Shown here: in pieces, positions 12,510 through 64,000 of the stretch
How the letters are laid out: each line of letters starts with the position of its first letter
Position numbering within the stretch: position 1 is the stretch's first letter
From: Bacteroidales bacterium
GTDB taxonomy: Bacteria; Bacteroidota; Bacteroidia; Bacteroidales; TTA-H9
DNA: 64,000 nucleotides
Direction of reading: 5' to 3'
Assembly (NCBI GenBank): GCA_049969475.1
Contig: JBMFOU010000005.1
Span: 2,034-66,033 of the forward strand
Notes under the pieces: generated by a model
What the model saw: the letters and a program-made list of their open reading frames with translations, nothing else
Told to the model about the DNA's origin: nothing
Databases searched by the model: none
Made by a program: the position numbers and the translations under genes

Positions 12510-12521
12510 AAACCCTCCCAA

Positions 12522-13445: not shown

Positions 13446-13492
13446 TTTGTAATTTTAAAGGAAAAACCAGAATCCCTCCAAATTTTTCTTCC

Positions 13493-14698: not shown

Positions 14699-14712
14699 AA
14701 AATTCAACGACT

Positions 14713-16560: not shown

Positions 16561-16572
16561 ACAGACACATGT

Positions 16573-17721: not shown

Positions 17722-17739
17722 AATATTCCTTATTCATCT

Positions 17740-18960: not shown

Positions 18961-18972
18961 AAAATTTTGGTT

Positions 18973-19599: not shown

Positions 19600-19613
19600 A
19601 AAAAATTCTGACC

Positions 19614-20807
19614 ATGCTTACACTGAAAGTGATCTTCTGGATATTATTGTTTATAGTTTTTTATGCTTACCTTGGTTATGGAATATTGCTTTTCATTCTG
19701 GTGAGGCTAAAGCGCATTTTTAAACGCAAACCCCACCCGAGCGACACGCATTACGAGCCAGAGGTAACCCTCTTGGTGGCTGCATATAACGAGCGCGAAT
19801 ATGTAGATGCCAAGGTGCAAAATTCACTCTCGCTCGACTATCCCAAAGAGAAGATTAAAATGGTTTGGGTAACCGACGGCTCGGATGATGGAACTCCTGA
19901 ACTTCTAAAAAAATATGAAAATCAGGGAGTAAGAGTTTATCACAAACCTGAGCGGGGTGGCAAAATCGGGGCCATGAACCGGGGTATGCAATTCGTAGAT
20001 ACTCCCATAGTGATATTTTCTGATGCCAACACTATGCTTGGACCGGAAAGTATTCGCCGCATAGTCAATCTATTTGCTGATCCAAAAGTGGGTTGTGTTT
20101 CGGGAGAAAAAAGGATTTTTCAAAAAGAAGCCCAGTCGGCAGCTGCTACCGAAGGAATTTACTGGAAATATGAGTCGAAACTCAAGAAATGGGATGCAGA
20201 GCTATACTCGGTAGTAGGGGCAGCCGGCGAACTATTTGCTATTCGCACCGATCTTTACCAAGAAGTTGAGCAGGACACCCTACTCGACGATTTTATCATT
20301 TCCCTGCGTATAGCCATGAATGGATATACCATTCAATACGACCCGGAAGCATATGCTATTGAGGCCCCTTCGGCCAATGTAAAAGAAGAACTAAAGCGAA
20401 AAATTCGCATTGCAGCCGGCGGCATTCAAAGTATAGTACGCCTGAAGCCTTTGCTTAATCCTTTTAAATATGGCCTACTTTCGTTCCAATACATTTCGCA
20501 TCGCGTCCTTCGCTGGACCCTTGCACCACTCTCTTTACCCCTGATTTTTATCCTGAACCTCATCGTTGCCATCCATGCAGGTTTTGCATCCAACGATCTC
20601 TATACTTGGCTCTTTTTAGCTCAGGTGCTTTTTTATGCTATGGCGCTATTAGGTTGGTTGCTCGAAAGTAAAAGCCTCAGAATTAAAATTCTATTTGTTC
20701 CTTATTACTTCCTTATTATGAATTATGCTGTTTTTCTTGGTTTTGCCAGATACCTGAAAAAACAGCAGTCGGTCAATTGGGAACGCGCTCAAAGGGCGAA
20801 AGCCTAA
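19614..20807 (+). CDS. membrane-embedded GT2, second synthase-like enzyme
   Basis: 397 aa. N-terminal TM, GT-A core (LLVAAYNE, FSDANT), a degenerate QxxRW position (RKIRIAAGG), and C-terminal TM helices. Confidence 0.85.
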   Translation: MLTLKVIFWILLFIVFYAYLGYGILLFILVRLKRIFKRKPHPSDTHYEPEVTLLVAAYNEREYVDAKVQNSLSLDYPKEKIKMVWVTDGSDDGTPELLKKYENQGVRVYHKPERGGKIGAMNRGMQFVDTPIVIFSDANTMLGPESIRRIVNLFADPKVGCVSGEKRIFQKEAQSAAATEGIYWKYESKLKKWDAELYSVVGAAGELFAIRTDLYQEVEQDTLLDDFIISLRIAMNGYTIQYDPEAYAIEAPSANVKEELKRKIRIAAGGIQSIVRLKPLLNPFKYGLLSFQYISHRVLRWTLAPLSLPLIFILNLIVAIHAGFASNDLYTWLFLAQVLFYAMALLGWLLESKSLRIKILFVPYYFLIMNYAVFLGFARYLKKQQSVNWERAQRAKA

Positions 20808-20847
20808 AGAGGCGTTCCCTCTTTTTTAAAAGCTGGGGCAGAAAAAC

Positions 20848-22506
20848 ATGAAAGCTCAATTCTTATTGGGGATTATCTTAGCTTTAATAGGTAGATATGC
20901 AGCGGCCCAGCCTTGTGATATAATTTTCAATCCTTCTCCTAAAAATACCCTATTAATCAAGGCTTCTGATTTCCCCAGCATAGGTCCAGGAAAAACCATT
21001 TGCCTGAAAGCTGGAAAATATTTTAATATCCGCTTCGAAAACTTACGGGGAACTGAGTCTAATCCCATCTTAATTCGTCCTTTGGAGGGTGACGTTATCA
21101 TCGATACAACAAGTCCGTATGGTATTAAATTTAGCGACTGTCAGTTCCTTAAAATCGATGGCCTGGACGAAGGTCAGCGAAAAATACGTATTCTTAAAAC
21201 CAATGGTACAGGGGTATCCATCGATGACCGCTCCACGGATATAGAAGTCGCCTGGTTGGAAATAGGAAATACTGGACTGGCCGGAATTGTTGCTAAATCT
21301 GACCCTGATTGCAGTTTTAACACTACCCGTGACAGTTTTTTAATGAAAAATATCACTATCAGGGACAATTTTCTGCATGATATCGGACTTGAAGGGATGT
21401 ATATTGGCAGTACCTATTTTTTCGGTCGTACCATACATTGCGGTAATCATGATACAACGGTGCTGCCACACGTCAATCACAATATTCATATTTATAATAA
21501 TTTTATATTTAAAACCGGCTACGACGGTATGCAGGTTTCAAGCACAGTTAAAAGTTGTTTTATACACGACAACACTATCTGGTACGATAGCCAACTGAAA
21601 CAGCCCGGACAAATGAGTGGAATTATTGTGGGAGCGGGAAATGCATTGGAATGTTATAATAATACTATCATAAACGGAGCCGGACATGGCATTGAAATCC
21701 ACAGTCAGGGGGGGAGAATATTTAACAATGTAATCGTAAACAACGGAAGAAGTTATAGACCCAACACACAGGGAGTCTACGTTAAACCGGGCATATTCGT
21801 GGGTTACAACCTTTACAATCCTGATAACCTGCCTTATAGAATATATAATAACACCATTTACCGACCAAAGAGTGAAGGAGTTAAATTTTCGAACACCAAC
21901 AGTCCTGTGAACGAGTTTATTAACAATATTATTGTCGATCCCGGGATATGGAAGTATTATGACAGTCTTAATATACCAGTAACAAGGAGCTTTCTCAATA
22001 TTGATCCTGGAATTAGTTATATAAGCCTGACCAACTATTTCACGCAGGATACCCTGGCCCCTCAGTTTGCAAATCCTGAATCGTATAATTTTATGCTACA
22101 AGAAAATAGTCCTTTAGTGGATGCAGGAACACACCTGGGAAATCAAGGGGTAGTTTTCGACCGTAATAACTCTCCCCGACCTCAGGGAAAAGGATACGAT
22201 ATAGGAGCCTTTGAATACTTTGCCCAGCAGGGTTTAGAGTCTCCTAAGGCGAAAGAGAGTTTCAGGTTGTTTTATGACATCAGTAGACAAACTTTGTTAT
22301 TGATGGGTGATGAATTCTCGGCCGAGATCACTGGCGTTGCAGTTTATAACTCCATGGGGCAATGTAACATAAAACAAAAATTCAACCATCAACAAGGAAG
22401 TAAAGTGTCATTGGATGTAAAACACCTGCCAGCAGGGATTTATGTGGTAAATATTGAAACAGCCGAAGGAACTTTTGGAAGATTGTGGATAAAAGGAACA
22501 AGATAA
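20848..22506 (+). CDS. secreted right-handed parallel beta-helix protein with a T9SS C-terminal sorting domain
   Basis: 552 aa. Signal peptide, repeated N-N/I-x-N beta-helix rungs (IYNNFIF, CYNNTIING, IFNNVIVNNG, IYNNTIY, FINNIIV). C-terminal 80 aa end GVAVYNSMGQ...LPAGIYVVNIETAEGTFGRLWIK. Confidence 0.8.
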   Translation: MKAQFLLGIILALIGRYAAAQPCDIIFNPSPKNTLLIKASDFPSIGPGKTICLKAGKYFNIRFENLRGTESNPILIRPLEGDVIIDTTSPYGIKFSDCQFLKIDGLDEGQRKIRILKTNGTGVSIDDRSTDIEVAWLEIGNTGLAGIVAKSDPDCSFNTTRDSFLMKNITIRDNFLHDIGLEGMYIGSTYFFGRTIHCGNHDTTVLPHVNHNIHIYNNFIFKTGYDGMQVSSTVKSCFIHDNTIWYDSQLKQPGQMSGIIVGAGNALECYNNTIINGAGHGIEIHSQGGRIFNNVIVNNGRSYRPNTQGVYVKPGIFVGYNLYNPDNLPYRIYNNTIYRPKSEGVKFSNTNSPVNEFINNIIVDPGIWKYYDSLNIPVTRSFLNIDPGISYISLTNYFTQDTLAPQFANPESYNFMLQENSPLVDAGTHLGNQGVVFDRNNSPRPQGKGYDIGAFEYFAQQGLESPKAKESFRLFYDISRQTLLLMGDEFSAEITGVAVYNSMGQCNIKQKFNHQQGSKVSLDVKHLPAGIYVVNIETAEGTFGRLWIKGTR

Positions 22507-25004: not shown

Positions 25005-26108
25005 ATGCCTGTAATACTTGCCGATCGGCATATTCCTTATCTGGATGTTTTGGCCCAGAGCGAGTTACAAGTTATTCCTTTAAGACCTGAAGAAATCACA
25101 AGGACAAAACTTTTAGAGACTCGGGCTGAAGGGTTATTAATCAGAACACGAACCAAGGTCAACTCAAATCTACTGGACGGGACAGCCGTTCATTTTATTG
25201 GCACAGCCACTATTGGCATGGACCATATCGATACGCTTTGGTGCAAATCCCGGGGAATAGAGGTTGTGTCAGCTCCTGGATGCAATGCGGGAGGCGTGAT
25301 GCAATACATCGCAGCAGCTCTGGCTCAATATTTCACAACTTCCCCAAAAAATCCCGATGGGCTAACGCTGGGCATTGTGGGATACGGGAATACCGGAAGA
25401 TTATCAGCAAAAGTGGGTAATGCGCTTGGAATGAGAATTTTAATAAACGACCCACCACTGGCCGATGCCGGTTACCTGAAGAACGACACTCCATTGAAGC
25501 AACTGCTTTCCGAATCTGATGTAGTTACCTTACACGTTCCATACACTTCCAGGGGAGCCCATCCTACCCGATACCTCCTCAATGAGGGAAATATCAAGTA
25601 CCTCAAGCCCACAAATCTTCTTATCAATACCTCAAGGGGTGGAGTTGTGGATGAAATGTCGCTCTTAAAATTCAAATCTGAACACCCAGCATTTCATTAT
25701 ATTTTGGATGTTTGGGAGAATGAGCCAGACCTCAATAAAGAGGTACTTTATGAGGCATTTCTGGCAACTCCACATATTGCAGGATACAGTCTGGATGGGA
25801 AACGCAATGCCAGTCAGGTGATTTTCAATGCAGTACTGAAACATTTTGGTTTTGGGGAAGATATAGTTTTACCTGATATTATCCCACGCACTCAGCCAGA
25901 AATCAATGCACGGCATCTTATGGAAGCGATTCTTGAGGTGTATCCAATAACTGCGGATGACCGGAGGCTGCGCAGGGAGCCCGGGAGCTTTGAAAAATTA
26001 AGATCAAACTACCCATTCAGGCATGAATTCCATCACTTTACCCTAAGTGGGTTAGATGAAGTGGAAAAGCGAAATGCCCAAGTGTTGGGGTTTAAAATCA
26101 AGGATTAA
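25005..26108 (+). CDS. pdxB: 4-phosphoerythronate dehydrogenase
   Basis: 367 aa. PdxB-like N-terminus (ADRHIPY...), FIGTATIGMDHID, APGCNAGGV, NAD-binding GIVGYGNTG. The size fits PdxB rather than other 2-hydroxyacid dehydrogenases. Confidence 0.8.
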   Translation: MPVILADRHIPYLDVLAQSELQVIPLRPEEITRTKLLETRAEGLLIRTRTKVNSNLLDGTAVHFIGTATIGMDHIDTLWCKSRGIEVVSAPGCNAGGVMQYIAAALAQYFTTSPKNPDGLTLGIVGYGNTGRLSAKVGNALGMRILINDPPLADAGYLKNDTPLKQLLSESDVVTLHVPYTSRGAHPTRYLLNEGNIKYLKPTNLLINTSRGGVVDEMSLLKFKSEHPAFHYILDVWENEPDLNKEVLYEAFLATPHIAGYSLDGKRNASQVIFNAVLKHFGFGEDIVLPDIIPRTQPEINARHLMEAILEVYPITADDRRLRREPGSFEKLRSNYPFRHEFHHFTLSGLDEVEKRNAQVLGFKIKD

Positions 26109-27964
26109 TAATCGAGATATTCCTGGAAAAGAGTTTGAAGAAAAGCCCGGGCATGTTTTTCATGCTTCAAATGAATACCCGAAGGAATAGTCATGCGGAA
26201 AGGTATTTGCAGCTTATGATCCCATATATATTCTCCTTCGGGAATTTTCCAACCTACGCCATAATCGAATGTAAGATACGTGAAATCAGGTGTGGCAGGA
26301 TTTAGCATGTCTCTTCCCCAAAAAAACTCCTGGGTAGAGACTCCAAGCATACTCAAAAGTGTGGTTCCTACATCGGTTTGCGAAACCAGCCTCGAAATTT
26401 GCCTTCCCCTCCATTCCGGTTTAATCACTTCACCATAAAAGAGAATGGGTATCCGGTTGTATTCGAAAGAATTAGGATGCCAGTTGCGATAGGAATTGTG
26501 GCTATGATCGGCTACGAGAATAAAAAGGGTATTAGCATACCATGGCTGCTTTCGCGCCTGCTCGAAGAAACGCCCCAGGCTCCAATCAGTATAAAAGGCT
26601 GAGTTGATATATTTACGTTCGTTGTTCCCCCAGTGTAATTTTTCCTCCATGGGCTGGTCGTAAGGGGAATGAGAAGACAGAGTAAACAAGGACGCAAAGA
26701 ATGGTTGAGGTTCGGTTTTAAGGTCATGCAGAAGTTCGTTGAGAGTAAACTCGTCGTGAATACCCAATTTGCCTTCCTTGCGGGGAAGTTTGAAATCATA
26801 AATCTCTTTAATACGATGAAACTCGTTGAAGATAATGTAGCTCTTTATGTTTCCGTAAATCAGTTGCCCTCCGAAGTAAAAGCTTGAATGGTATCCCAAA
26901 GCATTAATTTTCCGTACGATACTTGGTAAATGTCGGTACTTGTCAGGCTGGACAGTGATAGAAGTGTAAGGATGAGGGGGAAAGGCACTGAAAAGAGCAG
27001 CCATGCCCTGCTCCGAACGTTTTCCCCCGGCGTAGGCCTGAGTGAAAAGAATCCCATTTTTCTCCAATTTTCTGAATTCGGGAGTTATGCCAGGTTCTCC
27101 GCCCAGGCTTTCAATCAGATCGGCCGACCAACTCTCTAAAATGAGCATTACAATATTGGGGCGCTCGTTGATGAGAATTTGCGGGGGACTGATTATTGGC
27201 TTAGCAAATAAAGAGTCCACGATAGCTCTGGCCTCTTCATCAGGCATAAATCGGAATGGATTCTCGTCTTTAAATTGACGGTTTTCGAACCAACTGATAT
27301 AAAGGTTGAAAGCAGAGTTTACTGCGGTGTTGTTGAGTATTTCGTATTGCGAATAATAGCTCTGACTCTGGTTGATAGGAATTTGCTGCAAGCCTCCCCG
27401 AGCTCCTATAACCAGCAAGGGAAGAAATAAAACAAAGGCTAATAAGCCTTTCCACCAAACCCTTGCCTCTCCCACAGATCGAATGGCAACCCACCGATGG
27501 TAGATAAAGACTCCTACAGTGGTCAGTATCCCAAACATCGCAAAAAGCAGTACCAGATTGCTGGTTTGGGCTGAGTTGATAACCTCGGAAGGATGAGCCA
27601 GATATCTCAGAGCCTTAAAGCTGAGCTTGGTCTGCCACTCCTCATAAATACCTGCTTCACCAGCAATAAGGAGGGAATAACATACAATCAGTAAGTAATT
27701 AAAAATCAACAACAGTCGGTCGACCCAGGCTGATCGTGCATAATACTTAATCATAAGCAGGACTAATATTATAAAGGCAGGGTAGCAGAAAGTGGCCGTA
27801 TCGAGGCGAAGCGCAGAGGGGAAAGCCTTTAAAATTTCCATGAAAGGCATACCGGAATGAAACATCAAGCCTGCATAGTAAACAATAAACGCCACCCGCC
27901 CCAGGGCAAAAAAAATGAGCCAGAAAAAATAGTGGCGTAAAAGACTTTTGAATATGAATTTCAT
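26105..27964 (-). CDS. LTA-synthase-family (alkaline-phosphatase superfamily) membrane transferase
   Basis: 619 aa. About 5 N-terminal TM helices, then a sulfatase-type domain (IVMLILESWSADL..., GGKRSEQGM, LVADHS). The stop overlaps the pdxB stop (TTAA, convergent). Confidence 0.8.
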   Translation of the reverse strand: MKFIFKSLLRHYFFWLIFFALGRVAFIVYYAGLMFHSGMPFMEILKAFPSALRLDTATFCYPAFIILVLLMIKYYARSAWVDRLLLIFNYLLIVCYSLLIAGEAGIYEEWQTKLSFKALRYLAHPSEVINSAQTSNLVLLFAMFGILTTVGVFIYHRWVAIRSVGEARVWWKGLLAFVLFLPLLVIGARGGLQQIPINQSQSYYSQYEILNNTAVNSAFNLYISWFENRQFKDENPFRFMPDEEARAIVDSLFAKPIISPPQILINERPNIVMLILESWSADLIESLGGEPGITPEFRKLEKNGILFTQAYAGGKRSEQGMAALFSAFPPHPYTSITVQPDKYRHLPSIVRKINALGYHSSFYFGGQLIYGNIKSYIIFNEFHRIKEIYDFKLPRKEGKLGIHDEFTLNELLHDLKTEPQPFFASLFTLSSHSPYDQPMEEKLHWGNNERKYINSAFYTDWSLGRFFEQARKQPWYANTLFILVADHSHNSYRNWHPNSFEYNRIPILFYGEVIKPEWRGRQISRLVSQTDVGTTLLSMLGVSTQEFFWGRDMLNPATPDFTYLTFDYGVGWKIPEGEYIWDHKLQIPFRMTIPSGIHLKHEKHARAFLQTLFQEYLDY

Positions 27965-47329: not shown

Positions 47330-48160
47330 ATGAGTAATGGATATTACCGGCCTTCCGGTTTCGGGGGACTTACCCCGGTAGTTAAGAATTTATTGATAAT
47401 CAATGCTCTATTTTTCTTAGGGACCTTTTCTTTATTATCCTTCAGCCGGGGCCAGATTGACCTCACCGAATGGCTTGCCCTGTATTATCCGGCTTCTGAT
47501 AAGTTTAGAACCTGGCAGATTGTAACCTACATGTTCATGCATGCCAACTTCGCCCATATCTTTTTCAATATGTTTGCCCTGTGGATGTTTGGCAATATTT
47601 TGGAACAGGTATGGGGGCCCAAAAGATTCTTAACTTATTATTTGGTAACCGGCATAGGGGCAGCTATCGTTCATATACTGGTGATGTATTACCAATTTTG
47701 GACTCTTGACGCCGAAGTCAGCCGTTTTATCTCCCATCCCAATCCGGTTGATTTTGAAATGCTCATAGAAAAGTATTTTGCAGGGATGTACAATCCGCTG
47801 TGGTTACAGGAAATGGTTAATGCATGGAGTTTATCGCCCCATGATGCCGGAATGACGCATGAAGCAATGCAAGCTATTGGGAAACTCATTTCAACCAAAA
47901 TGGACATACCCACAGTGGGTGCCAGTGGTGCTGTATTCGGTATTTTGCTGGCCTACGGTATGTTGTTTCCTAACACACTGCTCTACATTTATTTCCTTTT
48001 CCCCATAAAAGCTAAATGGTTTGTAATCATCTATGGAGCCCTTGAATTTTATTTTGGCATCAGCGGACATGGAGATAACGTGGCTCATTTTGCCCACTTA
48101 GGCGGAATGATTTTTGGCTATTTCATGATTCGACGGTGGAGAAGACACATGTATTATTAA
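47330..48160 (+). CDS. rhomboid-family intramembrane serine protease
   Basis: 276 aa. HANFAHIFFNM (TM2), GASGAVFG (catalytic Ser), AHFAHLGG (catalytic His). Confidence 0.9.
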   Translation: MSNGYYRPSGFGGLTPVVKNLLIINALFFLGTFSLLSFSRGQIDLTEWLALYYPASDKFRTWQIVTYMFMHANFAHIFFNMFALWMFGNILEQVWGPKRFLTYYLVTGIGAAIVHILVMYYQFWTLDAEVSRFISHPNPVDFEMLIEKYFAGMYNPLWLQEMVNAWSLSPHDAGMTHEAMQAIGKLISTKMDIPTVGASGAVFGILLAYGMLFPNTLLYIYFLFPIKAKWFVIIYGALEFYFGISGHGDNVAHFAHLGGMIFGYFMIRRWRRHMYY

Positions 48161-48174
48161 ATGTAGTTCAAATT

Positions 48175-49068
48175 ATGTACGGAAGTTTCAACGAAAATAC
48201 CCCCTGGCAACAGTTTAAAGCATTTATTAGAAGAAGGGAAATCTTACCCCGACTTATCCTTATCAATGTCGCAATTTGGATTATTATTAGCTTTCTCAGG
48301 GTTCTGGGATTGCTATCAGGAAAAGCTTTCCCCCACTGGACAGGGTTTTTCCTCGATTGGCTCGGAGCTCCAGCCAATCCTATGCTTATTCCTTCCCGTT
48401 TCTGGACCCTTATCACCTATAATTTTGTTCATTTCGATTTTATTCACCTGCTTTTCAATTTATTGTGGCTCTACTGGATGGGGCTGCTTTTTACCGAATA
48501 CCTATCAGGCCGCCGATTACTTTGGGTGTATTTGCTTGGCGGTATCAGTGGCTATCTTGTTTACTTGCTCGCATTCAACATTTTTCCCGGATTACTACCC
48601 ATGGCCGGAAGCGCCCGTCTCATTGGAGCCTCGGCGGCGGTAATGGCAGTGGTCAGCGCACTGGCCTTCTATCTTCCCAACTATACTATTTACCTGCTTT
48701 TCCTGGGTCGAATCCGACTCATTTGGCTGGCTATCGGCCTCTTCGTGCTTGATTTTCTTATGATTAGTTCGAGTAATCCGGGTGGGCATCTGGCACATAT
48801 GGGGGGGTTCTTGTTTGGCTACGTTTACATTGTGCTTTTTAAACACAATCTACTCCCCCGTGTTGATCCGGTAGCCTGGTTCAGACCCAAACCCAAAGTA
48901 ACTTATCGGAGCAGCACCATCAAAACCGACGAAAAATATAATGAAGAAAAAAAGCAGCGTCAGGAAGAAATCGACCGAATACTCGATAAAATCAAAGATT
49001 CGGGCTACCAAAGCTTGACGGAACGGGAAAAAGAAATTCTTTTCAGAGCCAGTCAAAGCAACAACTGA
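48175..49068 (+). CDS. second rhomboid-family protein with a charged C-terminal tail
   Basis: The ORF-track start at 48136 is GTG, so I used the ATG at 48175. HFDFIHLLFNL, GASAAV (Ser retained, following Gly changed to Ala), HLAHMGG. Lys/Glu-rich cytoplasmic tail of ~70 aa. Confidence 0.85.
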   Translation: MYGSFNENTPWQQFKAFIRRREILPRLILINVAIWIIISFLRVLGLLSGKAFPHWTGFFLDWLGAPANPMLIPSRFWTLITYNFVHFDFIHLLFNLLWLYWMGLLFTEYLSGRRLLWVYLLGGISGYLVYLLAFNIFPGLLPMAGSARLIGASAAVMAVVSALAFYLPNYTIYLLFLGRIRLIWLAIGLFVLDFLMISSSNPGGHLAHMGGFLFGYVYIVLFKHNLLPRVDPVAWFRPKPKVTYRSSTIKTDEKYNEEKKQRQEEIDRILDKIKDSGYQSLTEREKEILFRASQSNN

Positions 49069-56848: not shown

Positions 56849-58774
56849 ATGCGCTTGCGATTGGATTTCCGGAGCAGTATCTTACCCCTGGTGTTCTACA
56901 GGATTTTTCTCGCCCTGGCTTTTATAAGCCTAACGAGGCTCATGCTTTATTTTTTCCAGAAACCTTTGTTCAATTTTCCCGATTTTCCAGGATTAAAGAG
57001 CATTTGGCTTTCAGGTTTGCGTTTCGACCTTTCGGCCGTTTTCATGCTAAATCTCCCATATTTGGCCTGGGCGCTCTTCCCCTTCCCTATCCGAAATTCG
57101 GGGCCCTGGCAAAAGACGGGCAACTTCTTGTACTACGCTGCCAACATCGCGGGTATTTTACTGAACATGGTGGATACAGCCTACTACCCTTTCAACCTCA
57201 AAAGACTTACTGCCGACATTTTTTCATTCCTGGGTGCCAACAACAATATCTTTATCCTTATTCCCCAACTTTTATACGATTTTGTACTTAATCTGCTGGT
57301 GTTCCTGCTCATTGTCATTATGTTTATAGTTTTAATAAAAAGAGTCAAACATGGAAAGGAACTCTTTTACCGATCCACTGTTCATTTCGTTTTCTGGAAC
57401 CTCCTGATATGGATGTTCATGATTGCTGGAGCGGTGATTTTTATTAGAGGAGGTTGGCAGCGGAGGCCTATTACCCTCATCAATGCCAGTGAAAAGGTTC
57501 AGCCCCAATTCTCTGCATTGGTTCTCAACACACCCTTTACCATTATAAAAACCTGGAAAAAAGAAGGTTTGCCTGAAAAACATTATTTTACCTCTGAAGA
57601 TCAGGCAACTAAGATTTTTAATCCGGTACAGACCTATTACCGGCCCGATCGGCCTGTAAAAAAAGACAATATCGTAATAATTATCCTGGAGAGCTTTGGG
57701 AGTGAACATTCGGCCTATCTCAATGAGGGATTATATCCTCCACCCTCTCGTGGATACACTCCTTTTCTGGACTCGCTGATGAAAACGGGGCTTACCTTCA
57801 GGGCTTACGCCAACGGAAAACGCAGCATTGAGGGCATCCCGGCCGTAGTAGCAGGCATACCACACCTGCTGCCAATTGAATTTATCAACTCACCTTATGC
57901 CTCCAACGATATAGAATCTCTTCCCGCCATTTTAAAAAATCATGGCTACCAATCGGTTTTTTACCATGGAGGGATAAATGGTACGATGCACTTCGATGCA
58001 TTTGCCAGCAAAGCAGGTTTCGACGCTTATAAAGGAATGAATGAGTACGAAGGGCCACCTGCCTTCGACGGGCAATGGGGCATTTTTGACGAACCCTACC
58101 TTCGATACGTGGCGCGTGAAATGGACCACCTCAAAGAACCTTTCCTTGTAACCATCTTCACCCTTTCTTCGCATCACCCCTATCAAGTTCCCGATAGTTT
58201 GAAGAATCAATTACCCGCCGGCCCATTGAAAATTCAACAAAGCATCGCATACGCCGACCATGCCCTTCGGAGATTTTTTCAAACGATTCGCAATAAAACC
58301 TGGTTCCCTCACACCCTTTTTATCCTAACTGCCGATCATACTTCAGAAGGATACCATCCATTCTATAAAACCTTAGCGGGGCAGTTTAGCATTCCACTCA
58401 TATTTTTAAAACCTGGTGACAGTCTGCCACCGGCTCGCCAAACCCTGGCCCAGCAAATTGATATCCTGCCATCGGTCTGCCAATATCTAAATCTCTACGA
58501 TACCATCATCTCGTTTGGAAAAAGTGTATTCGCCCCTCAAAAACCCGCCTTTGCCATCAACTATCTCAATGGCATCTATAACTTATTCACTGACGGGCGT
58601 CTTTTGCTTTTCGACGGAGACAAAACCACGGGCTGGTACGATTTGAGGGCAGACAGCCTGCAGTTAAAACTTAATAAAAACAGAGATATAAAGCTGGAAG
58701 CTGACGAAATGCTTGTCAAAAGCATCATCCAGCAATTCAATCACCGGATGCGGACCAATCATTTGAAACACTAA
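56849..58774 (+). CDS. LTA-synthase-family membrane transferase (paralog of 26105-27964)
   Basis: 641 aa. About 5 TM helices plus a sulfatase-type domain (IVIIILESFGSEHS, NGKRSIEGIP, LTADHTSEG). Confidence 0.85.
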   Translation: MRLRLDFRSSILPLVFYRIFLALAFISLTRLMLYFFQKPLFNFPDFPGLKSIWLSGLRFDLSAVFMLNLPYLAWALFPFPIRNSGPWQKTGNFLYYAANIAGILLNMVDTAYYPFNLKRLTADIFSFLGANNNIFILIPQLLYDFVLNLLVFLLIVIMFIVLIKRVKHGKELFYRSTVHFVFWNLLIWMFMIAGAVIFIRGGWQRRPITLINASEKVQPQFSALVLNTPFTIIKTWKKEGLPEKHYFTSEDQATKIFNPVQTYYRPDRPVKKDNIVIIILESFGSEHSAYLNEGLYPPPSRGYTPFLDSLMKTGLTFRAYANGKRSIEGIPAVVAGIPHLLPIEFINSPYASNDIESLPAILKNHGYQSVFYHGGINGTMHFDAFASKAGFDAYKGMNEYEGPPAFDGQWGIFDEPYLRYVAREMDHLKEPFLVTIFTLSSHHPYQVPDSLKNQLPAGPLKIQQSIAYADHALRRFFQTIRNKTWFPHTLFILTADHTSEGYHPFYKTLAGQFSIPLIFLKPGDSLPPARQTLAQQIDILPSVCQYLNLYDTIISFGKSVFAPQKPAFAINYLNGIYNLFTDGRLLLFDGDKTTGWYDLRADSLQLKLNKNRDIKLEADEMLVKSIIQQFNHRMRTNHLKH

Positions 58775-59680: not shown

Positions 59681-60436
59681 ATGGATAAGCCATTCAGTTC
59701 TGATTTCTGGAGTCAGGAAGATTTCATAAAGTTTATTGGCGAAAACGATGATAGACTAAGAGTTGTAGAAGACATCATCAGCCTGAAGACGCAAAATAAA
59801 GCGATGCAGCTGGCTGAAAAATTCAAAGCAGCCTCCATCCCCGATGAAAAAGCCCTGGAGATGGCAGAGCAACTTTGGAATCCCTACACTAAACTTAAGG
59901 AAATTCACAAAATTTTGGTGATACTAGCTTTCAGAAGCAATGTACAAGCCTTTAGGATAATAGAGAAATACAAAGAAAATCCTCATCCCAGGGCAGAAGA
60001 AATGGTCCGCTTTTGTTACCACATTTCAAAAATAAGTCTCGAAGGAGAGCTCACCGATCAGCCCCTGGGACTCATTGCCACCGGTTTGGGAGGGAAAAAA
60101 ACGAAACTCAGGTTTTTGCTGGTGATTTTTCCTGAAAATCCCGTTCCTCTTACTAAAGCCCAGCAAAAGATTATTCAAAACGAGTGGAAGGAAATCTGTG
60201 CAAAATACGACATCGAAACCGAGAGCAAATACTCCTGCCCCGAATATGTTCTATTCAGGTTATTATCGCCCTTGAGGGTCGATTTTGCCGAAGTGGCAAG
60301 AGAATTTGTCACGGAATGCAACCTATACGGCAACTTCCTATCAAATAAAATATTGATAACCAACGTTAGGCTTCTTAAGAAATGGGAAATCTTATCAGCT
60401 CTTGAGCAAATAAGGTCTGAAAAAAAAGGGGGTTGA
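59681..60436 (+). CDS. hypothetical cytoplasmic protein
   Basis: 251 aa with no motif I recognise. It lies 18 nt after the lipid kinase gene, on the same strand. Confidence 0.6.
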   Translation: MDKPFSSDFWSQEDFIKFIGENDDRLRVVEDIISLKTQNKAMQLAEKFKAASIPDEKALEMAEQLWNPYTKLKEIHKILVILAFRSNVQAFRIIEKYKENPHPRAEEMVRFCYHISKISLEGELTDQPLGLIATGLGGKKTKLRFLLVIFPENPVPLTKAQQKIIQNEWKEICAKYDIETESKYSCPEYVLFRLLSPLRVDFAEVAREFVTECNLYGNFLSNKILITNVRLLKKWEILSALEQIRSEKKGG

Positions 60437-60517: not shown

Positions 60518-62494
60518 ATGAAAAAATATCTCACACTTTTCCTCCTGGCAGGTACTTTGCTATTGACAGTCTATCTACCTGCTCAGCAGTTATTTGAAAA
60601 GGGTTCCTGGCACTGCAGTCAGAAATCTTTACACACTTACAGGCATTTACCCTCTGCAGAGGATGGATATTTCCCCAAATCTTTCGATATCATTAAATAC
60701 GATCTGGATATCGATATCTGGCATTGTTACCAGTTTCCATACCCCCACAATTTCAATGGTTATTTGATAGTTACCCTGAGGGCCGATAGTGCCTTGAACA
60801 TGATTAAACTGGATGCGGTGAATGCTTCCATGGATATATTGGAGGTTGATAGGGCAGGGACCAGTTTTAGTCATACTAATGATAAACTGACTATTAACCT
60901 TAATAGAGTGTATCAGCCGGCTGAGGAATTTCAGGTGGGAATCAAATACTTTCACAAAAATATAGAGGACTATGCCTTTTACGTAAAAAATGGTTGGGTT
61001 TTTACCGATTGCGAACCTGAAGGGGCTCGTAAGTGGTTTCCATGCTACGACCGTCCTTCCGACAAAGCCCAATGGAAACTCAGGGCGAAAGTGCCGAGCA
61101 GCGTTAAACTGGGCAGTAACGGTATCCTGGCCGATTCCACCCGAGTGGGCGATAGCATCTGGTACACCTGGAGCAGCGAAGAAAACGTGGCCACTTATCT
61201 TATGGTGATCTCTTCTAGGGTTAATTATAATCTCGACATTGTTAACTGGACCAATCCCAATAATGCCTCACAGACAGTACCTATAAGGTTTTATTACAAT
61301 CCGGGGGAGGATCCATCCTTTATTAAAAGTATTATTGGAGACATGACCTCATTTTACAGTCAAACCTTTTGCGACCACCCGTTTAGTAAAAACGGTTTTG
61401 CCACACTCAACGATGAATTTGCTTGGGGTGGAATGGAAAACCAGACCCTTACAAGTCTTTGTCAGGGGTGCTGGAGCGAAATGCTGGTGGCTCACGAATA
61501 TGCCCATCAGTGGTTTGGCGACATGATAACATGTGCCACATGGGCCGACATTTTCCTGAACGAAGGCTTTGCCACCTACTCCGAAAGCTTATGGCTCGAA
61601 AACACCCAGGGTTATGCTGCCTACAAGCAAGATGTATTGTCGAATGCCAACTATTACCTGAGTGCCAATCCCGGTTGGGCCATTTCCAATCCTTCCTGGG
61701 CCACCACCACTCCTTCTACAAGTGTACTCTTCAATTACGCTATTACCTATTGCAAAGGAGCAGCCGTTTTGCATATGCTGCGATACACCATCGGAGATTC
61801 GCTTTTCTTTGAAGTTTTGCATCAATATGCATCCAACCCTCTGCTAAAGTACGAGTCTGCCACGATCCCCGACTTCATTAATGTTGTAAACAGCGTTACC
61901 GGTCAGGATTACCAATGGTTTTTCGACCAATGGATTTACGCTCCGAATCATCCGCTTTACGCTAACACCTATAGTTTCGATCAATTACCCGACGGGAAAT
62001 GGGCTGTATATTTCCAGGTAACCCAAACCCAGACCAACACCGTGTTTTTCAAGATGCCGATTGAGATTCGCATTCTGGGACAAGATGGATTGGACACCAC
62101 CGTTCGCGTCTTCAACGAATACAACAATCAGTCTTTCATGTTTGTGGTAGATAAAAAACCTCTTATGGTAAAATTTGATCCCAACAACGACATTGTTCTC
62201 AAGCAGTCAGGCTTGATGGTCGGCACGGAGGAATTAGAAAACAAGGGTTTCAGGGCATATATCGCAGATAACGGAAACCCTCAGAAAGATGTTCTATTAG
62301 TGGTAGAAACAGGAAAAGCTTCACCTTGTAAAGTGACTCTTATGGATCTCATGGGAAAACAGATAGATATACCCTATGCAGGAATGCTCTCGCCTGGATT
62401 GAACGAAATCAAGATAAAGGTCCCCGAAACCAGAAGTTTATATATTATTAATGTAGAAACCGCTGAAAACACTCAAAAAATAAAAGTCTGGTAA
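60518..62494 (+). CDS. M1-family zinc aminopeptidase with a T9SS C-terminal sorting domain
   Basis: 658 aa. GGMENQ exopeptidase motif, HEYAHQWFGD...E zinc site, and a C-terminal ~80 aa beta-sandwich ending LYIINVETAENTQKIKVW. Confidence 0.92.
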   Translation: MKKYLTLFLLAGTLLLTVYLPAQQLFEKGSWHCSQKSLHTYRHLPSAEDGYFPKSFDIIKYDLDIDIWHCYQFPYPHNFNGYLIVTLRADSALNMIKLDAVNASMDILEVDRAGTSFSHTNDKLTINLNRVYQPAEEFQVGIKYFHKNIEDYAFYVKNGWVFTDCEPEGARKWFPCYDRPSDKAQWKLRAKVPSSVKLGSNGILADSTRVGDSIWYTWSSEENVATYLMVISSRVNYNLDIVNWTNPNNASQTVPIRFYYNPGEDPSFIKSIIGDMTSFYSQTFCDHPFSKNGFATLNDEFAWGGMENQTLTSLCQGCWSEMLVAHEYAHQWFGDMITCATWADIFLNEGFATYSESLWLENTQGYAAYKQDVLSNANYYLSANPGWAISNPSWATTTPSTSVLFNYAITYCKGAAVLHMLRYTIGDSLFFEVLHQYASNPLLKYESATIPDFINVVNSVTGQDYQWFFDQWIYAPNHPLYANTYSFDQLPDGKWAVYFQVTQTQTNTVFFKMPIEIRILGQDGLDTTVRVFNEYNNQSFMFVVDKKPLMVKFDPNNDIVLKQSGLMVGTEELENKGFRAYIADNGNPQKDVLLVVETGKASPCKVTLMDLMGKQIDIPYAGMLSPGLNEIKIKVPETRSLYIINVETAENTQKIKVW

Positions 62495-62504: not shown

Positions 62505-62535
62505 TTTGGAAATATAAATCTATGCTGTATCTTTG
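62505..62535 (+). promoter_or_regulatory. promoter with -33 TTTG and -7 TATCTTTG
   Basis: TTTG at 62505-62508 and TATCTTTG at 62528-62535 with a 19-nt spacer. This places the transcription start at about the first base of the riboswitch. Confidence 0.6.
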
Positions 62536-62540
62536 CCGCG

Positions 62541-62656
62541 TATTCTTCAGGGCAGGGTGAAATTCCCGATCGGCGGTATAGTCCGCGACTCCCGCATCAG
62601 GGACTGAACCGGTGAAACTCCGGTACCGACAGTTAAAGTCTGGATGGAAGAAGGAT
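62541..62656 (+). promoter_or_regulatory. FMN riboswitch (RFN element) aptamer
   Basis: TTCTTCAGGGCAGGGTGAAATTCCCGATCGGCGGTATAGTCCGCGAC...CCGGTGAAACTCCGGTACCGACAGTTAAAGTCTGGATGGAAGAAGGA. All conserved RFN blocks are present, and P1 is closed by TTCTTC/GAAGAA. Confidence 0.93.
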
Positions 62657-62709
62657 ACGTTCAGAAAATCAGGCAAACAGTGTCTGGGTTTTTGAAGGTA
62701 TTGTGCTTT

Positions 62710-62741
62710 GCCCTGAGGAATCGACTCAGGGCAATTCTTTT
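62710..62741 (+). terminator. riboswitch expression-platform terminator
   Basis: GCCCTGAG-gaatcga-CTCAGGGC (8-bp stem) followed by AATTCTTTT. It ends 15 nt before the ATG. Confidence 0.75.
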
Positions 62742-62755
62742 AAAAACACAATACT

Positions 62756-64000
62756 ATGCGTTACAGACATTGGATTTTAACTGCACTGCTACTCGCGCTA
62801 CTTTTCAATGTTAAAAGTCAGGTAAGGATTGAAGGCCGCATTATCGATGCACTTACCAACAAACCGGTTTACGATGCTAGCATTACAATTTTGGGAAGCT
62901 CAGCAGGCACCGTAGCCGCCAAAGACGGTAGTTTTAGTCTGCAAACTAATCTTAGTGACGGCACCCTTCAAATTACACATGTAAGTTATAAAAATCTAGC
63001 AATCAATTTTAAGACAAAAAACCAGGACTTAATTAATTTAGGGACTCTTGTATTAGAGCCCAAATCGTACACATTGGGAACGACCGACATTCGTGCTTTC
63101 CGTGCAGAGGAAGGGAAAAGCCCGTTGAATGTAAGAAACATCAGTCAAAGGGAGATAAGGCAGTACAACACCGGCCTTTCGTATCCCGAACTTATGCGGA
63201 ATATTCCTGGTATATATGCGAGTGGTCTTGGAGGCGGCGTGGGCGATGCAGCCATCAATATCAGAGGGTTTAAACAGGAGAACCTGGCTCTTACGCTCAA
63301 TGGAATACCCATCGGAAGTGTTGAAAACGGCTTGGTTTATTGGTCAAACTGGGATGGATTGCAGGAAGCCACTCAAAGTCTGCAGGTACAAAAAGGGATG
63401 GGAAGCGCAGAATTGGCGTTCAACGCTCTGGGAGGCACCATAAACATATCTACACATGCGCCAGCAACAGAAGAAGGAGGTCAGATTAGCTACTACACCA
63501 CCGATTATGGGCTGCAGCGTACCTCATTAAGCCTTTCTACAGGAAATCTCAGCAATGGCTGGCGATTCAGCTTTGTGGGTTCGCGCACGGTTGGTAAAGG
63601 ATATGCCGATGGAACACAGGTAAATACCTGGTCCTATTTCCTTTTTGGTGAAAAAGTTTTTAATGCCCGCCATCGTATCATCGTTAGCTTGATAGGTTCA
63701 CCCGACCGCCATGGGCAAAGAGCATCGAAACTATCATTCAACGATATTAAAAGCAGAGGAATCCGATATAATCCTGACTGGGGAACATACTATGGACGGG
63801 CCATCAATTTGCAAGAAAATTTCTACCACAAACCCTTGTTATCGATAAGTCATTACTGGACCCTTGATGAAAAATCGCAGCTAGCCACGAGCCTGTATGC
63901 TAGTTATGGTTCGGGAGGTGGTCGGTGGGCTGAAAACTTCAGCGGAGCCCCTGTTTTTGCCTACAGAACTCTCTCCGGCCAAATCGACTGGGATGCCCTG
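62756..64000 (+). CDS. TonB-dependent outer-membrane receptor (partial, continues past the window)
   Basis: Absent from the ORF track because it has no stop codon in the window. From ATG 62756, 415 codons stay open to 64000. Signal peptide MRYRHWILTALLLALLFNVKSQ, a carboxypeptidase-regulatory-like domain (VRIEGRIIDALTNKPVYDASITILG), and plug motifs (PELMRNIPGIY, DAAINIRGF, LNGIPIG, GGTINI). Confidence 0.88.
   Translation, partial: MRYRHWILTALLLALLFNVKSQVRIEGRIIDALTNKPVYDASITILGSSAGTVAAKDGSFSLQTNLSDGTLQITHVSYKNLAINFKTKNQDLINLGTLVLEPKSYTLGTTDIRAFRAEEGKSPLNVRNISQREIRQYNTGLSYPELMRNIPGIYASGLGGGVGDAAINIRGFKQENLALTLNGIPIGSVENGLVYWSNWDGLQEATQSLQVQKGMGSAELAFNALGGTINISTHAPATEEGGQISYYTTDYGLQRTSLSLSTGNLSNGWRFSFVGSRTVGKGYADGTQVNTWSYFLFGEKVFNARHRIIVSLIGSPDRHGQRASKLSFNDIKSRGIRYNPDWGTYYGRAINLQENFYHKPLLSISHYWTLDEKSQLATSLYASYGSGGGRWAENFSGAPVFAYRTLSGQIDWDAL

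What the first reader, a model, noticed from the sequence alone, without database searches (positions are those of the whole stretch)
62505..64000. Complete FMN-riboswitch attenuator placed in front of a TonB-dependent outer-membrane receptor
A -33/-7 promoter, a full RFN aptamer (62541-62656) and an 8-bp GC terminator with a T-run (62710-62741) form one regulatory unit. It ends 15 nt before a gene that is neither a rib biosynthesis gene nor a known inner-membrane riboflavin carrier. The gene is a TonB-dependent receptor with a plug domain. Riboswitch-gated TonB receptors are established for cobalamin (btuB) and for thiamine in Bacteroides. I am not aware of a characterised flavin-specific TonB receptor. 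This arrangement therefore predicts active outer-membrane uptake of riboflavin, FMN or a related flavin, repressed when FMN is replete. The gene is cut by the window edge, so any partner lipoprotein or inner-membrane carrier is unseen.
Basis: partly seen in the sequence, partly recalled or inferred. Interest (0 to 1): 0.72.

Follow-up and report, generated by a model that had tools for sequence, protein, structure and literature searches.

The report
FMN riboswitch controlling an outer-membrane TonB receptor
A genuine, complete FMN (vitamin B2) riboswitch sits directly in front of a TonB-dependent outer-membrane receptor gene, and the same pairing is kept in every ortholog I could inspect in other Bacteroidota genomes, which points to a so far uncharacterised outer-membrane importer for flavins.

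Summary
Rfam RF00050 matches window 62539-62659 (+) full length at 113.1 bits (threshold 66.2), the only Rfam hit in the window. A Bacteroidota-type promoter (TTTG 62505-08, TATCTTTG 62528-35) precedes it. A 10-bp terminator with a T-run (62708-62741) follows, and the gene starts at ATG 62756. It encodes a signal peptide, a CarboxypepD_reg-like domain and a Plug domain, and is cut at the window end.

The aptamer 5' strand (62543-62554) is perfectly complementary to the terminator 5' arm (62709-62720). This is a classical anti-terminator, so the design is an FMN-OFF transcription attenuator.

Among 164 related loci, all 30 fetched genome-collection members of this receptor's clade with upstream sequence carry the aptamer less than 400 nt upstream, as do seven close metagenome relatives (≥41% identity). 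No paralog has one directly upstream. The promoter motif and the covarying anti-terminator are conserved as well. In one genome an FMN-controlled ribDEBAH operon occupies the same syntenic slot. In the closest relatives the receptor is monocistronic and dnaA follows. In another sublineage a second receptor and exported nucleotide pyrophosphatase/phosphatases follow.

No comparative survey I could read lists a TonB receptor for riboflavin. Regulation is well supported; the flavin substrate (riboflavin, FMN or FAD) is inferred.

The parts
62505..62535 (+). Bacteroidota-type promoter: -33 TTTG (62505-62508), 19-nt spacer, -7 TATCTTTG (62528-62535). The predicted transcript start lies at about the first bases of the aptamer.
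   Evidence: Read directly from the sequence. The full motif is located at 62505. TAnnTTTG lies within 30 nt upstream of the aptamer in 30 of 35 orthologous leaders against a 1.4% background. The full TTTG-N17-23-TAnnTTTG occurs in 9 of 35 against 0.2%.
62539..62659 (+). FMN riboswitch aptamer (RFN element), complete six-helix fold.
   Evidence: RF00050 at 113.1 bits against a gathering score of 66.2, E 1.4e-25, model 1-138 of 138. My own model R1 scores it 127.9 bits. Across 30 orthologous aptamers 95.4% of cells are paired, 14 pairs show compensatory changes, and 0 of 500 shuffles reach this.
62543..62554 (+). Aptamer 5' strand (TTCTTCAGGGCA: P1 5' strand plus J1/2). It is the switching segment and the 5' half of the anti-terminator.
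   Evidence: It forms a perfect 12-bp duplex with 62709-62720 (-20.4 kcal/mol). The ligand-free minimum-energy fold of 62539-62745 uses this long-range helix (-77.7 kcal/mol, z -4.5).
62669..62687 (+). Linker hairpin followed by GTTTTTG. It lies between aptamer and terminator and its role is unknown.
   Evidence: Terminator-like hit with 7 pairs, 3 of them G-C. It is part of a longer hairpin in the minimum-energy fold.
62708..62741 (+). Intrinsic terminator: stem 62708-62717 paired with 62725-62734, loop 62718-62724, T-run 62735-62741. Its 5' arm (62709-62720) is the 3' half of the anti-terminator.
   Evidence: -18.6 kcal/mol, z -4.6. A hairpin with a T-run whose 5' arm has the GCCC(T/C)G type occurs in most orthologous leaders. 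Complementarity to the aptamer 5' strand is found in 35 of 35.
62756..64000 (+). 5' part (415 codons) of a TonB-dependent outer-membrane receptor gene. It encodes a signal peptide (MRYRHWILTALLLALLFNVKSQ), an N-terminal CarboxypepD_reg-like domain, a Plug domain and the start of the barrel. Orthologs are about 855-860 aa long.
   Evidence: Translation. Pfam PF13715 at 4.4e-11 and PF07715 at 1.8e-11. The full-length ortholog in L082 (859 aa) also has the PF00593 barrel.

Best explanation
This is an FMN-sensing OFF riboswitch acting by transcription attenuation. It controls a single gene for a TonB-dependent outer-membrane transporter, whose most likely job is energised uptake of an exogenous flavin (riboflavin, FMN or FAD).

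Proposed mechanism:
1. Transcription starts from a Bacteroidota -33/-7 promoter a few bases before the aptamer.
2. When FMN is scarce, the aptamer 5' strand (62543-62554) pairs with 62709-62720. This anti-terminator keeps the terminator from forming, so the receptor mRNA is made.
3. When FMN is bound, P1 closes and sequesters that strand. The hairpin at 62708-62734 with its T-run then forms and transcription stops 14 nt before the start codon.

Shown here: the aptamer, the promoter motif, the terminator, the alternative pairing and its covariation, the receptor identity, and the strict conservation of the aptamer-receptor pairing.

Inferred: FMN binding, the actual termination behaviour, and the substrate. 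Because the nearest paralogs sit next to exported nucleotide pyrophosphatases, phosphatases and nucleases, I lean towards flavin nucleotides (FAD or FMN) rather than only free riboflavin. That step is the weakest.
For: - Aptamer: RF00050 at 113.1 bits, full length. Ten of ten orthologous elements tested also pass Rfam's threshold at 96-118 bits, and no other family is found in those loci. Structure covariation: 95.4% paired, 14 compensatory pairs, 0 of 500 shuffles.
- Switch logic: the ligand-free minimum-energy fold is the anti-terminated form and the terminator alone folds at -18.6 kcal/mol. In 35 of 35 leaders the aptamer 5' strand has a complementary segment 46-110 nt downstream. The mean duplex energy is -16.1 kcal/mol, against -8.8 +/- 0.29 for shuffled downstream sequence and -14.8 +/- 0.27 when partners are permuted among loci (0 of 200 permutations reach it). 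The aptamer A/G at TTC[A/G]GGGC tracks T/C in the terminator arm.
- Conservation of the pairing: model R1 finds the aptamer in 32 of 80 genome loci and 7 of 80 metagenome loci, exactly those at 41% identity or more to the window receptor. The NJ tree gives one clade in which all 30 fetched genome-collection members with upstream sequence have the aptamer less than 400 nt upstream. No member of the paralogous clades has one directly upstream. More distant homologs from Cloacimonadota and Calditrichota have none.
- Link to flavin supply: in L028 the same syntenic slot holds aptamer, ribD, ribE, ribBA and ribH in place of the receptor.
- Nucleotide theme: a paralogous receptor, a lipoprotein nucleotide pyrophosphatase/phosphodiesterase (PF01663) and a PhoD-like phosphatase or 5'-nucleotidase follow the receptor in 8 or more loci.
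- Literature: surveys of FMN regulons and B2 transporters list only rib genes and inner-membrane carriers (PMC4418817; PMC3766115; PMC6593275; PMC2211319).
Against: - No experiment and no ligand or substrate data exist for this family.
- The gene is truncated in the window. In the closest relatives (L081, L082) nothing flavin-related is adjacent; dnaA follows.
- The second receptor, NPP and PhoD module also occurs without any aptamer (L068, L045, L063, L119, L126). It resembles phosphate-scavenging loci of Flavobacterium (PMC8115612), so its adjacency may reflect inherited synteny rather than function.
- The loci showing that arrangement share upstream synteny and are therefore not independent.
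- Context-based calls of riboflavin transporters have failed before: RfnT turned out to import copper (PMC6362234), although that case had no riboswitch.
- I could not test whether carriers of this gene lack rib genes. The window itself has none, but 64 kb says little.
- Sequence similarity to solved receptors is limited to the N-terminal and plug regions, so homology gives no substrate hint.
- The TonB box of the window protein is divergent.
Confidence: 0.68

Rival explanations
1. The riboswitch is real and FMN-responsive, but the receptor imports something other than a flavin. Candidates are other nucleotides or organophosphates (as suspected for its paralogs) or a metal complex. FMN control would then be an indirect physiological coupling.
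For: - Paralogous clades sit next to endonuclease I, nucleotide pyrophosphatase, PhoD-like phosphatase, deoxynucleoside kinase and acid phosphatase.
- Pho-regulated receptor-plus-lipoprotein-plus-nuclease sets are described in Flavobacterium (PMC8115612).
- The RfnT precedent shows that context predictions can be wrong (PMC6362234).
Against: - In the surveys read, FMN riboswitch regulons consist of riboflavin synthesis and riboflavin transport genes (PMC3766115; PMC2211319).
- The aptamer is restricted precisely to one orthologous clade and is absent directly upstream of all nucleotide- or phosphate-context paralogs. This argues that the clade acquired a distinct, flavin-linked role.
- The swap with an FMN-controlled rib operon at the same locus in L028.
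- No Fur- or Pho-type context surrounds the window gene.
Confidence: 0.2
2. The element belongs to a variant subclass of FMN-like aptamers with altered ligand specificity, sensing a flavin analogue or breakdown product. The receptor would then handle that compound.
For: From my own knowledge, rare FMN-riboswitch variants with changed binding-site nucleotides, associated with transporters, have been described by the Breaker laboratory in 2019. I did not check that paper here. The regulated gene is unusual for this riboswitch class.
Against: - The window element matches all upper-case, highly conserved consensus positions of RF00050 and scores 113 bits.
- The core is nearly invariant across 30 orthologs.
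- The same aptamer type precedes a canonical ribDEBAH operon in L028 at 116.4 bits.
Confidence: 0.05
3. The aptamer controls the receptor mainly at another level (translation initiation or mRNA stability, or Rho-dependent termination) and the hairpin with its T-run is incidental. Alternatively, the element is a decaying relic without function.
For: - About 6-8 of 37 orthologous leaders did not yield a terminator under my simple hairpin-plus-T-run rule.
- Bacteroidota lack strong Shine-Dalgarno use (my own knowledge), so translational sequestration would be hard to see.
- A second U-tailed hairpin exists at 62669-62687.
Against: - Complementarity between the aptamer 5' strand and a downstream segment is present in 35 of 35 leaders and covaries.
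- Most leaders have a G+C-rich hairpin with a T-run ending shortly before the ATG.
- A relic is excluded by scores of 96-132 bits and compensatory changes across 35 or more loci.
Confidence: 0.07

Closest known systems
Bacillus subtilis ribD (ribDEAHT) FMN riboswitch, the classical RFN transcription attenuator (own knowledge; general description in PMC3766115)
   Same: Same aptamer family (RF00050). Same OFF logic, with a terminator and an anti-terminator that uses the aptamer's P1 5' strand.
   Different: It controls a biosynthetic operon in a Gram-positive organism. Here the target is a single outer-membrane receptor gene behind a Bacteroidota -33/-7 promoter.
FMN riboswitches in front of inner-membrane riboflavin carriers (ribU/ypaA, pnuX/ribM, impX, ribN, ribXY, ribZ; PMC4418817, PMC6593275)
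   Same: An FMN aptamer gates a transport gene rather than synthesis. The expected physiology is salvage when FMN is low.
   Different: All of those are cytoplasmic-membrane proteins. The gene here is a plug-and-barrel TonB-dependent outer-membrane protein with no similarity to any of them.
btuB with the cobalamin riboswitch, and TPP-riboswitch-controlled outer-membrane receptors (Bacteroides thetaiotaomicron BT2390-type; omr) (PMC2211319; PMC5317091)
   Same: Same architecture of idea: a vitamin-cofactor riboswitch directly upstream of a TonB-dependent receptor for that vitamin.
   Different: A different riboswitch class and a different receptor lineage. TIGR01779 BtuB scores 29.7 bits against a cut-off of 599.7. 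The vitamin would be B2, for which no such receptor is listed in the surveys read.
Phosphate-starvation-induced TonB-dependent transporters with adjacent lipoproteins, phosphodiesterases and EndA nucleases in Flavobacterium (PMC8115612)
   Same: The paralogous clades of this receptor family have comparable neighbours: an unknown protein plus endonuclease I, or NPP plus PhoD. They share the CarboxypepD_reg plus Plug N-terminus.
   Different: Those loci have no riboswitch. I did not test orthology to the Flavobacterium johnsoniae genes. The window clade is set apart by the FMN aptamer.
PqqU, the TonB-dependent transporter for pyrroloquinoline quinone (PDB 9c4o, listed)
   Same: A TonB-dependent receptor dedicated to a small redox cofactor, which shows that such substrates are handled by this protein class.
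   Different: Only remote plug-region similarity (E 2.7e-5). No riboswitch is involved as far as I know.

Membership tests
FMN riboswitch (Rfam RF00050, RFN element) | Covariance-model score at or above the curated gathering score, full-length match | tested here: met
   113.1 bits against 66.2, E 1.4e-25, model 1-138 of 138, not truncated.
FMN riboswitch (Rfam RF00050, RFN element) | Six-helix junction (P1-P6) supported by compensatory changes among relatives | tested here: met
   30 orthologous elements give 32 pairs in 6 helices, 95.4% of cells paired and 14 pairs with changes on both sides. 0 of 500 shuffles reach this, and slid controls reach 57% paired at most.
FMN riboswitch (Rfam RF00050, RFN element) | Expression platform that converts ligand binding into a genetic decision (terminator and anti-terminator) | tested here: met
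   Terminator at 62708-62741. The anti-terminator pairs 62543-62554 with 62709-62720. It is conserved and covarying in 35 of 35 leaders.
FMN riboswitch (Rfam RF00050, RFN element) | Selective binding of FMN | not testable with these tools
   This needs in-line probing or ITC. All highly conserved consensus positions are kept.
TonB-dependent outer-membrane receptor/transporter | N-terminal plug domain (PF07715) | tested here: met
   Residues 121-228, E 1.8e-11, 44.9 bits against a cut-off of 23.9.
TonB-dependent outer-membrane receptor/transporter | 22-strand beta-barrel (PF00593) with a C-terminal aromatic residue | tested here: inconclusive
   The window gene is cut after 415 codons. Full-length orthologs have it: L082, 859 aa, PF00593 at E 9.9e-11. 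The clade consensus ends in ...FGRTFxFSxxxxF.
TonB-dependent outer-membrane receptor/transporter | TonB box between the N-terminal extension and the plug | tested here: inconclusive
   The clade consensus is LDEIxIxA. The window has the divergent LGTTDIRA at the aligned position.
SusC/RagA-type transporter of a SusCD pair | TIGR04056 above cut-off and a SusD-like lipoprotein gene immediately downstream | tested here: not met
   TIGR04056 scores 38.1 bits against a cut-off of 368. Downstream genes in orthologous loci are dnaA, a second receptor, or unrelated or convergent genes. No SusD-like domain was seen in the neighbours scanned.
BtuB (cobalamin receptor) | Equivalog model TIGR01779 or NF007926 above cut-off; cobalamin riboswitch upstream | tested here: not met
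   29.7 bits against 599.7 and 20.6 against 836. The upstream RNA is RF00050, not RF00174.
Known riboflavin carriers (RibU, PnuX/RibM, ImpX, RibN, RibXY, RibZ, RfuABCD) | Cytoplasmic-membrane transporter fold of one of these families | tested here: not met
   Pfam and NCBIfam report only TonB-receptor-type domains for the window protein.

The most novel reading that the evidence does not exclude
This clade is the first TonB-energised outer-membrane importer family for flavins, probably taking flavin nucleotides (FAD or FMN).

In one Bacteroidales sublineage it would form an FMN-controlled salvage unit with a second receptor and exported FAD/FMN-hydrolysing enzymes (a nucleotide pyrophosphatase lipoprotein, plus a PhoD-like phosphatase or a 5'-nucleotidase). 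These would deliver riboflavin to an unlinked inner-membrane carrier.

The same chromosomal slot can instead hold an FMN-controlled ribDEBAH operon. Related genomes would therefore toggle between making and scavenging vitamin B2.
Probability: 0.5. Interest if true: 0.75.

Novelty: new variant of a known kind. Interest (0 to 1): 0.62.

Why it matters
How Gram-negative bacteria move flavins across the outer membrane is essentially unaddressed. All catalogued riboflavin transporters are cytoplasmic-membrane proteins (PMC4418817, PMC6593275). FMN riboswitches were reported absent from Bacteroidaceae (PMC3766115).

A receptor clade that is always gated by an FMN aptamer gives a concrete, testable candidate for outer-membrane flavin uptake. 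It would extend the riboswitch-plus-TonB-receptor theme from B12 and B1 to B2. It would also allow B2 auxotrophy and cross-feeding to be predicted better in anaerobic Bacteroidales from sludge, sediment and groundwater communities.

The family currently carries only generic or misleading database names, such as 'iron complex outermembrane receptor protein'.

Tried and rejected
- Extending the window. Exact-protein look-ups with the two complete upstream genes (60518-62494 and 59681-60436) and with P0027 found nothing on record. The metagenome scan did not contain the window's own contig; the best hit was 56% identical. What follows the gene is therefore inferred from L081 and L082 by synteny.
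- The sigma-70 promoter scan found 0 sites. I rejected it as uninformative for Bacteroidota and used the TTTG/TAnnTTTG motif instead.
- Another riboswitch in front of the paralogous receptors: Rfam at gathering threshold found nothing in 11 non-aptamer loci, nothing besides RF00050 in 10 aptamer loci, and nothing in 4 distant loci.
- rib genes in the window or other loci: tblastn with the L028 RibD, RibE, RibBA and RibH proteins hit only L028.
- A partner lipoprotein or inner-membrane carrier: no gene is consistently next to the receptor. The MFS gene near L011, L020, L026 and L027 lies beyond a convergent gene and was not pursued. The 473-aa protein 9 nt downstream in L011 has no Pfam hit and occurs once.
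- Substrate hints from solved structures: only the N-terminal extension and plug align, best with 9gbc_A; siderophore receptors, BtuB and PqqU are remote. I rejected this as uninformative.
- Structure prediction was not run.
- Whether the second receptor is co-transcribed with the first: the intergenic gaps are 180-330 nt, mostly without a terminator-like hairpin or a -7 motif. This is left undecided.
- Literature: ten full-text searches found no paper linking an FMN/RFN element to a TonB receptor. Vitreschak 2002 and Romine 2017 were not held.
Full report
**Observation**

Rfam release 15 scanned over the whole 64 kb gives a single hit at gathering threshold. It is RF00050 (FMN riboswitch aptamer) at 62539-62659 on the + strand, 113.1 bits against a family threshold of 66.2, E 1.4e-25, covering model positions 1-138 without truncation. 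Every upper-case consensus position in the printed alignment is matched.

Downstream, the terminator scan finds a hairpin at 62708-62734 (10 pairs, 6 G-C, 7-nt loop) followed by TTCTTTT. Folded alone it gives -18.6 kcal/mol, z -4.6. The open reading frame starts at ATG 62756, 14 nt after the T-run, and runs off the window end (415 codons).

The product begins with a typical signal peptide. It carries a CarboxypepD_reg-like domain (residues 25-98, E 4.4e-11) and a TonB-dependent receptor Plug domain (121-228, E 1.8e-11). NCBIfam gives only weak, sub-threshold hits to SusC/RagA, siderophore, heme and BtuB models.

The sigma-70 scan finds no promoter. The Bacteroidota-type motif is present: TTTG at 62505-62508, a 19-nt spacer, and TATCTTTG at 62528-62535, ending 4 nt before the aptamer.

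**How the switch is built**

The aptamer's 5' strand TTCTTCAGGGCA (62543-62554) is perfectly complementary to TGCCCTGAGGAA (62709-62720), which is the 5' arm of the terminator (-20.4 kcal/mol). The minimum-energy fold of the whole leader without ligand (62539-62745) uses this long-range helix and leaves the terminator's 3' arm and the T-run unpaired (-77.7 kcal/mol, z -4.5, 0 of 200 shuffles as good).

The design is therefore the classical one:
- With FMN bound, P1 closes and holds the 5' strand, the terminator forms and transcription stops.
- Without FMN, the anti-terminator forms and the gene is read.

That it is an OFF switch is inferred from structure, not measured.

**Relatives**

A word-index protein search returned 63 relatives, all with generic names and a best identity of 54%. 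A scan of one genome per GTDB species gave at least 589 relatives, of which 80 loci were fetched (L001-L080). A metagenome scan gave another 80 (L081-L160).

I built a covariance model from 30 aptamers and searched all loci with it:
- The aptamer is present in 32 of the 80 genome loci and 7 of the 80 metagenome loci, at 75-132 bits, always on the receptor's strand.
- The hits are exactly the loci whose receptor is at least about 41% identical to the window protein. Loci at 36% or less have none.
- Ten of these elements, tested with Rfam itself, all pass the RF00050 threshold (96-118 bits), and no other Rfam family occurs in those loci.
- Eleven loci without the aptamer have no Rfam hit of any kind. 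More distant homologs from Calditrichota and Cloacimonadota contigs have none either.

A neighbour-joining tree of 90 receptors over the 415 window-aligned positions separates one clade containing the window protein. All 30 fetched genome-collection members of that clade for which upstream sequence exists have the aptamer less than 400 nt upstream. The two members without it (L032, L073) are cut by the contig start. L013 was flagged only because my ORF call over-extended across the aptamer. No member of the other clades has an aptamer directly upstream.

Across the 30 aligned aptamers, 95.4% of base-pair cells are standard pairs and 14 of 32 pairs show changes on both sides (0 of 500 shuffles reach either value). 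Sliding the partners drops pairing to 31-57%.

**The leader as a whole is conserved**

- TAnnTTTG starts within 30 nt upstream of the aptamer in 30 of 35 leaders, against 1.4% of random positions in the same loci. The full TTTG-N17-23-TAnnTTTG occurs in 9 of 35, against 0.2%.
- In 35 of 35 leaders the aptamer 5' strand finds a complementary segment 46-110 nt downstream. The mean duplex energy is -16.1 kcal/mol. Shuffled downstream sequence gives -8.8 +/- 0.29. Permuting the downstream regions among loci gives -14.8 +/- 0.27, and none of 200 permutations reaches the observed value.
- The difference reflects covariation. Leaders with TTCAGGGC have GCCCTGA-type arms and leaders with TTCGGGGC mostly have GCCCCG-type arms. 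The odd L031 (TTCGAGTC) has CCTCGAA.
- Most leaders also show a G+C-rich hairpin with a T-run shortly before the start codon.

**Genomic context**

The window shares its upstream gene order (Ig-like surface protein, sulfatase-family enzyme, YegS-type lipid kinase, a 251-aa protein, M1 aminopeptidase) with L082, L081, L002 and L017. In the two closest relatives (L081 at 56% and L082 at 54%) the receptor is 859-884 codons long. It is followed, after about 0.5 kb, by dnaA and housekeeping genes. The unit there is monocistronic, with no SusD-like partner and no inner-membrane carrier.

Elsewhere the next gene varies: convergent genes, a hydrogenase operon, a hybrid kinase.

One sublineage is different (L003, L014, L015, L019, L022, L023, L029, L036). 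There the aptamer-gated receptor is followed by a second, paralogous receptor. L002, L007, L017 and L021 instead have a 1,080-aa plug-plus-barrel protein at that position. Next comes either a PF01663 nucleotide pyrophosphatase/phosphodiesterase (E 1.9e-88) and often a PhoD-like phosphatase, or, in L003, a 5'-nucleotidase-type metallophosphoesterase. The pyrophosphatases and the 5'-nucleotidase have lipoprotein signal peptides and the PhoD-like proteins have Sec signal peptides.

The gaps between the two receptors (180-330 nt) mostly lack a terminator-like hairpin or a -7 motif, so co-transcription is possible but unproven. The same module of second receptor, pyrophosphatase and PhoD-like phosphatase also exists without any aptamer (L068, L045, L063, L119, L126).

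Two loci are especially informative:
- In L028 the syntenic slot between a thioredoxin-reductase-like gene and that module holds aptamer, ribD, ribE, ribBA and ribH instead of the receptor.
- In L024 an intact aptamer is followed by two fragments (190 and 88 aa) of the receptor, apparently a pseudogene, and then the module.

More distant paralogs, mostly Flavobacteriaceae, lie in a conserved pgi, receptor, unknown protein, endonuclease I arrangement. A Cloacimonadota homolog lies next to a deoxynucleoside kinase and a class B acid phosphatase. This resembles the phosphate-starvation-induced receptor, lipoprotein and EndA sets of Flavobacterium (PMC8115612).

**Interpretation**

The regulatory claim is strong. 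This is a canonical FMN aptamer with a conserved promoter and a conserved, covarying terminator/anti-terminator platform. It is dedicated to one orthologous group of TonB-dependent receptors in Bacteroidota.

Three points support a flavin substrate. In the surveys I read, FMN regulons consist of riboflavin synthesis and riboflavin transport genes (PMC3766115, PMC2211319, PMC4418817). The OFF logic means the receptor is made when FMN is scarce. A rib operon can replace the receptor behind the same aptamer at the same locus. The most economical reading is therefore uptake of an exogenous flavin.

The wider receptor family is embedded in nucleotide and phosphoester-processing contexts, and exported FAD/FMN-capable hydrolase families follow the receptor in one sublineage. 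From this I lean towards flavin nucleotides as the substrate. FAD, at 785 Da, is also above the usual porin limit (my own knowledge). That preference is an inference, and the neighbouring module may be an unrelated phosphate-scavenging unit kept by synteny.

The RfnT case, predicted from gene clustering to carry riboflavin but shown to import copper (PMC6362234), is a reminder that the substrate needs an experiment. That case lacked a riboswitch.

**Comparison with what is known**

The RNA is an ordinary member of RF00050. The protein is a TonB-dependent receptor by its plug domain, and by its barrel in full-length orthologs. It is not a SusC/RagA-type, BtuB-type or siderophore-type member by the curated models. 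It has no close solved relative; only the N-terminal extension and plug align, best with 9gbc_A.

The arrangement works like btuB with the cobalamin riboswitch and like the TPP-riboswitch-controlled receptors of Bacteroides and others (PMC2211319, PMC5317091), transferred to vitamin B2.

The literature I could read shows the following:
- Sun et al. found no FMN regulon in Bacteroidaceae (PMC3766115).
- Gutierrez-Preciado et al. (PMC4418817) list no outer-membrane component among riboflavin transporters.
- Rodionov et al. (PMC6593275) likewise list none.
- Kazanov et al. found RFN elements only before rib genes, while noting outer-membrane receptors behind B12 and thiamine elements (PMC2211319).
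- Ten full-text searches found no paper connecting an FMN element with a TonB receptor.

I cannot exclude a mention in papers or databases that are not held.

**Verdict**

I class it as a new variant of a known kind: a vitamin riboswitch gating a TonB receptor, here with FMN and a receptor clade that has no functional annotation. Confidence that the RNA regulates the receptor in response to FMN is about 0.9. Confidence that the receptor imports a flavin is about 0.65-0.7. Confidence that the flavin is FAD or FMN, and that the downstream hydrolases belong to the same pathway, is about 0.35-0.5.

Noticed in passing
window 62659-62697 (hairpin core 62669-62687, then GTTTTTG): A second, weaker U-tailed hairpin lies between the aptamer and the main terminator. 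It forms in the minimum-energy fold of the leader. I could not tell whether it is a pause site, a first terminator or just a linker.
   Followed up: partly
beyond window end (inferred from L081 7051-8508 and L082 13127-14584); window 36001-60000: In the two closest syntenic relatives dnaA follows the receptor after about 0.5 kb. The window end is therefore probably within about 3 kb of dnaA and the replication origin. GC skew is negative over 36-60 kb and turns at about 60 kb.
   Followed up: partly
L028 1893-5624 and 5995-11259: An FMN aptamer followed by ribD, ribE, ribBA and ribH occupies the same syntenic slot that holds the aptamer-gated receptor in sister genomes. The slot lies between a thioredoxin-reductase-like gene and the module of second receptor, nucleotide pyrophosphatase and PhoD-like phosphatase.
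   Followed up: yes
L024 4438-5597: An intact aptamer (96 bits by Rfam) is followed by two receptor fragments of 190 and 88 aa. The receptor looks like a pseudogene while the RNA is still intact. The paralogous receptor and the pyrophosphatase follow.
   Followed up: partly
L030, L035, L037, L041 and about 30 other Flavobacteriaceae-type loci (e.g. L041 4185-12490): Paralogous receptors lie in a conserved string. It runs pgi, receptor, a 370-570-aa protein with no Pfam match, then a secreted endonuclease I with Big_9/cadherin-like repeats. No riboswitch is present. This is a likely nucleic-acid or organophosphate uptake unit, reminiscent of PMC8115612.
   Followed up: partly
L162 34-3132 (Cloacimonadota MAG contig): A distant homolog of the receptor sits directly after a deoxynucleoside kinase and a class B acid phosphatase. 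This again gives a nucleoside/nucleotide context.
   Followed up: no
window 3223-22506 (+): There is a long same-strand run of about 17 genes. The ten I scanned (3223-14698) look like an exopolysaccharide or O-antigen-type cluster with a flippase, a Wzy-like polymerase, several GT2 glycosyltransferases and a methyltransferase. It opens with a sugar transferase fused to a response-regulator receiver domain (3223-4413).
   Followed up: no
window 47330-49068 (+); 26105-27964 (-) and 56849-58774 (+): Two adjacent rhomboid-family protease genes overlap by 25 nt, and the second carries DUF6576. Two separate sulfatase-family (LtaS-like) membrane enzymes also lie in the window.
   Followed up: no
one search hit table: Members of this aptamer-gated clade are named in source databases as 'iron complex outermembrane receptor protein' or 'outer membrane receptor for ferrienterochelin and colicin'. 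Nothing in the context supports these names.
   Followed up: partly
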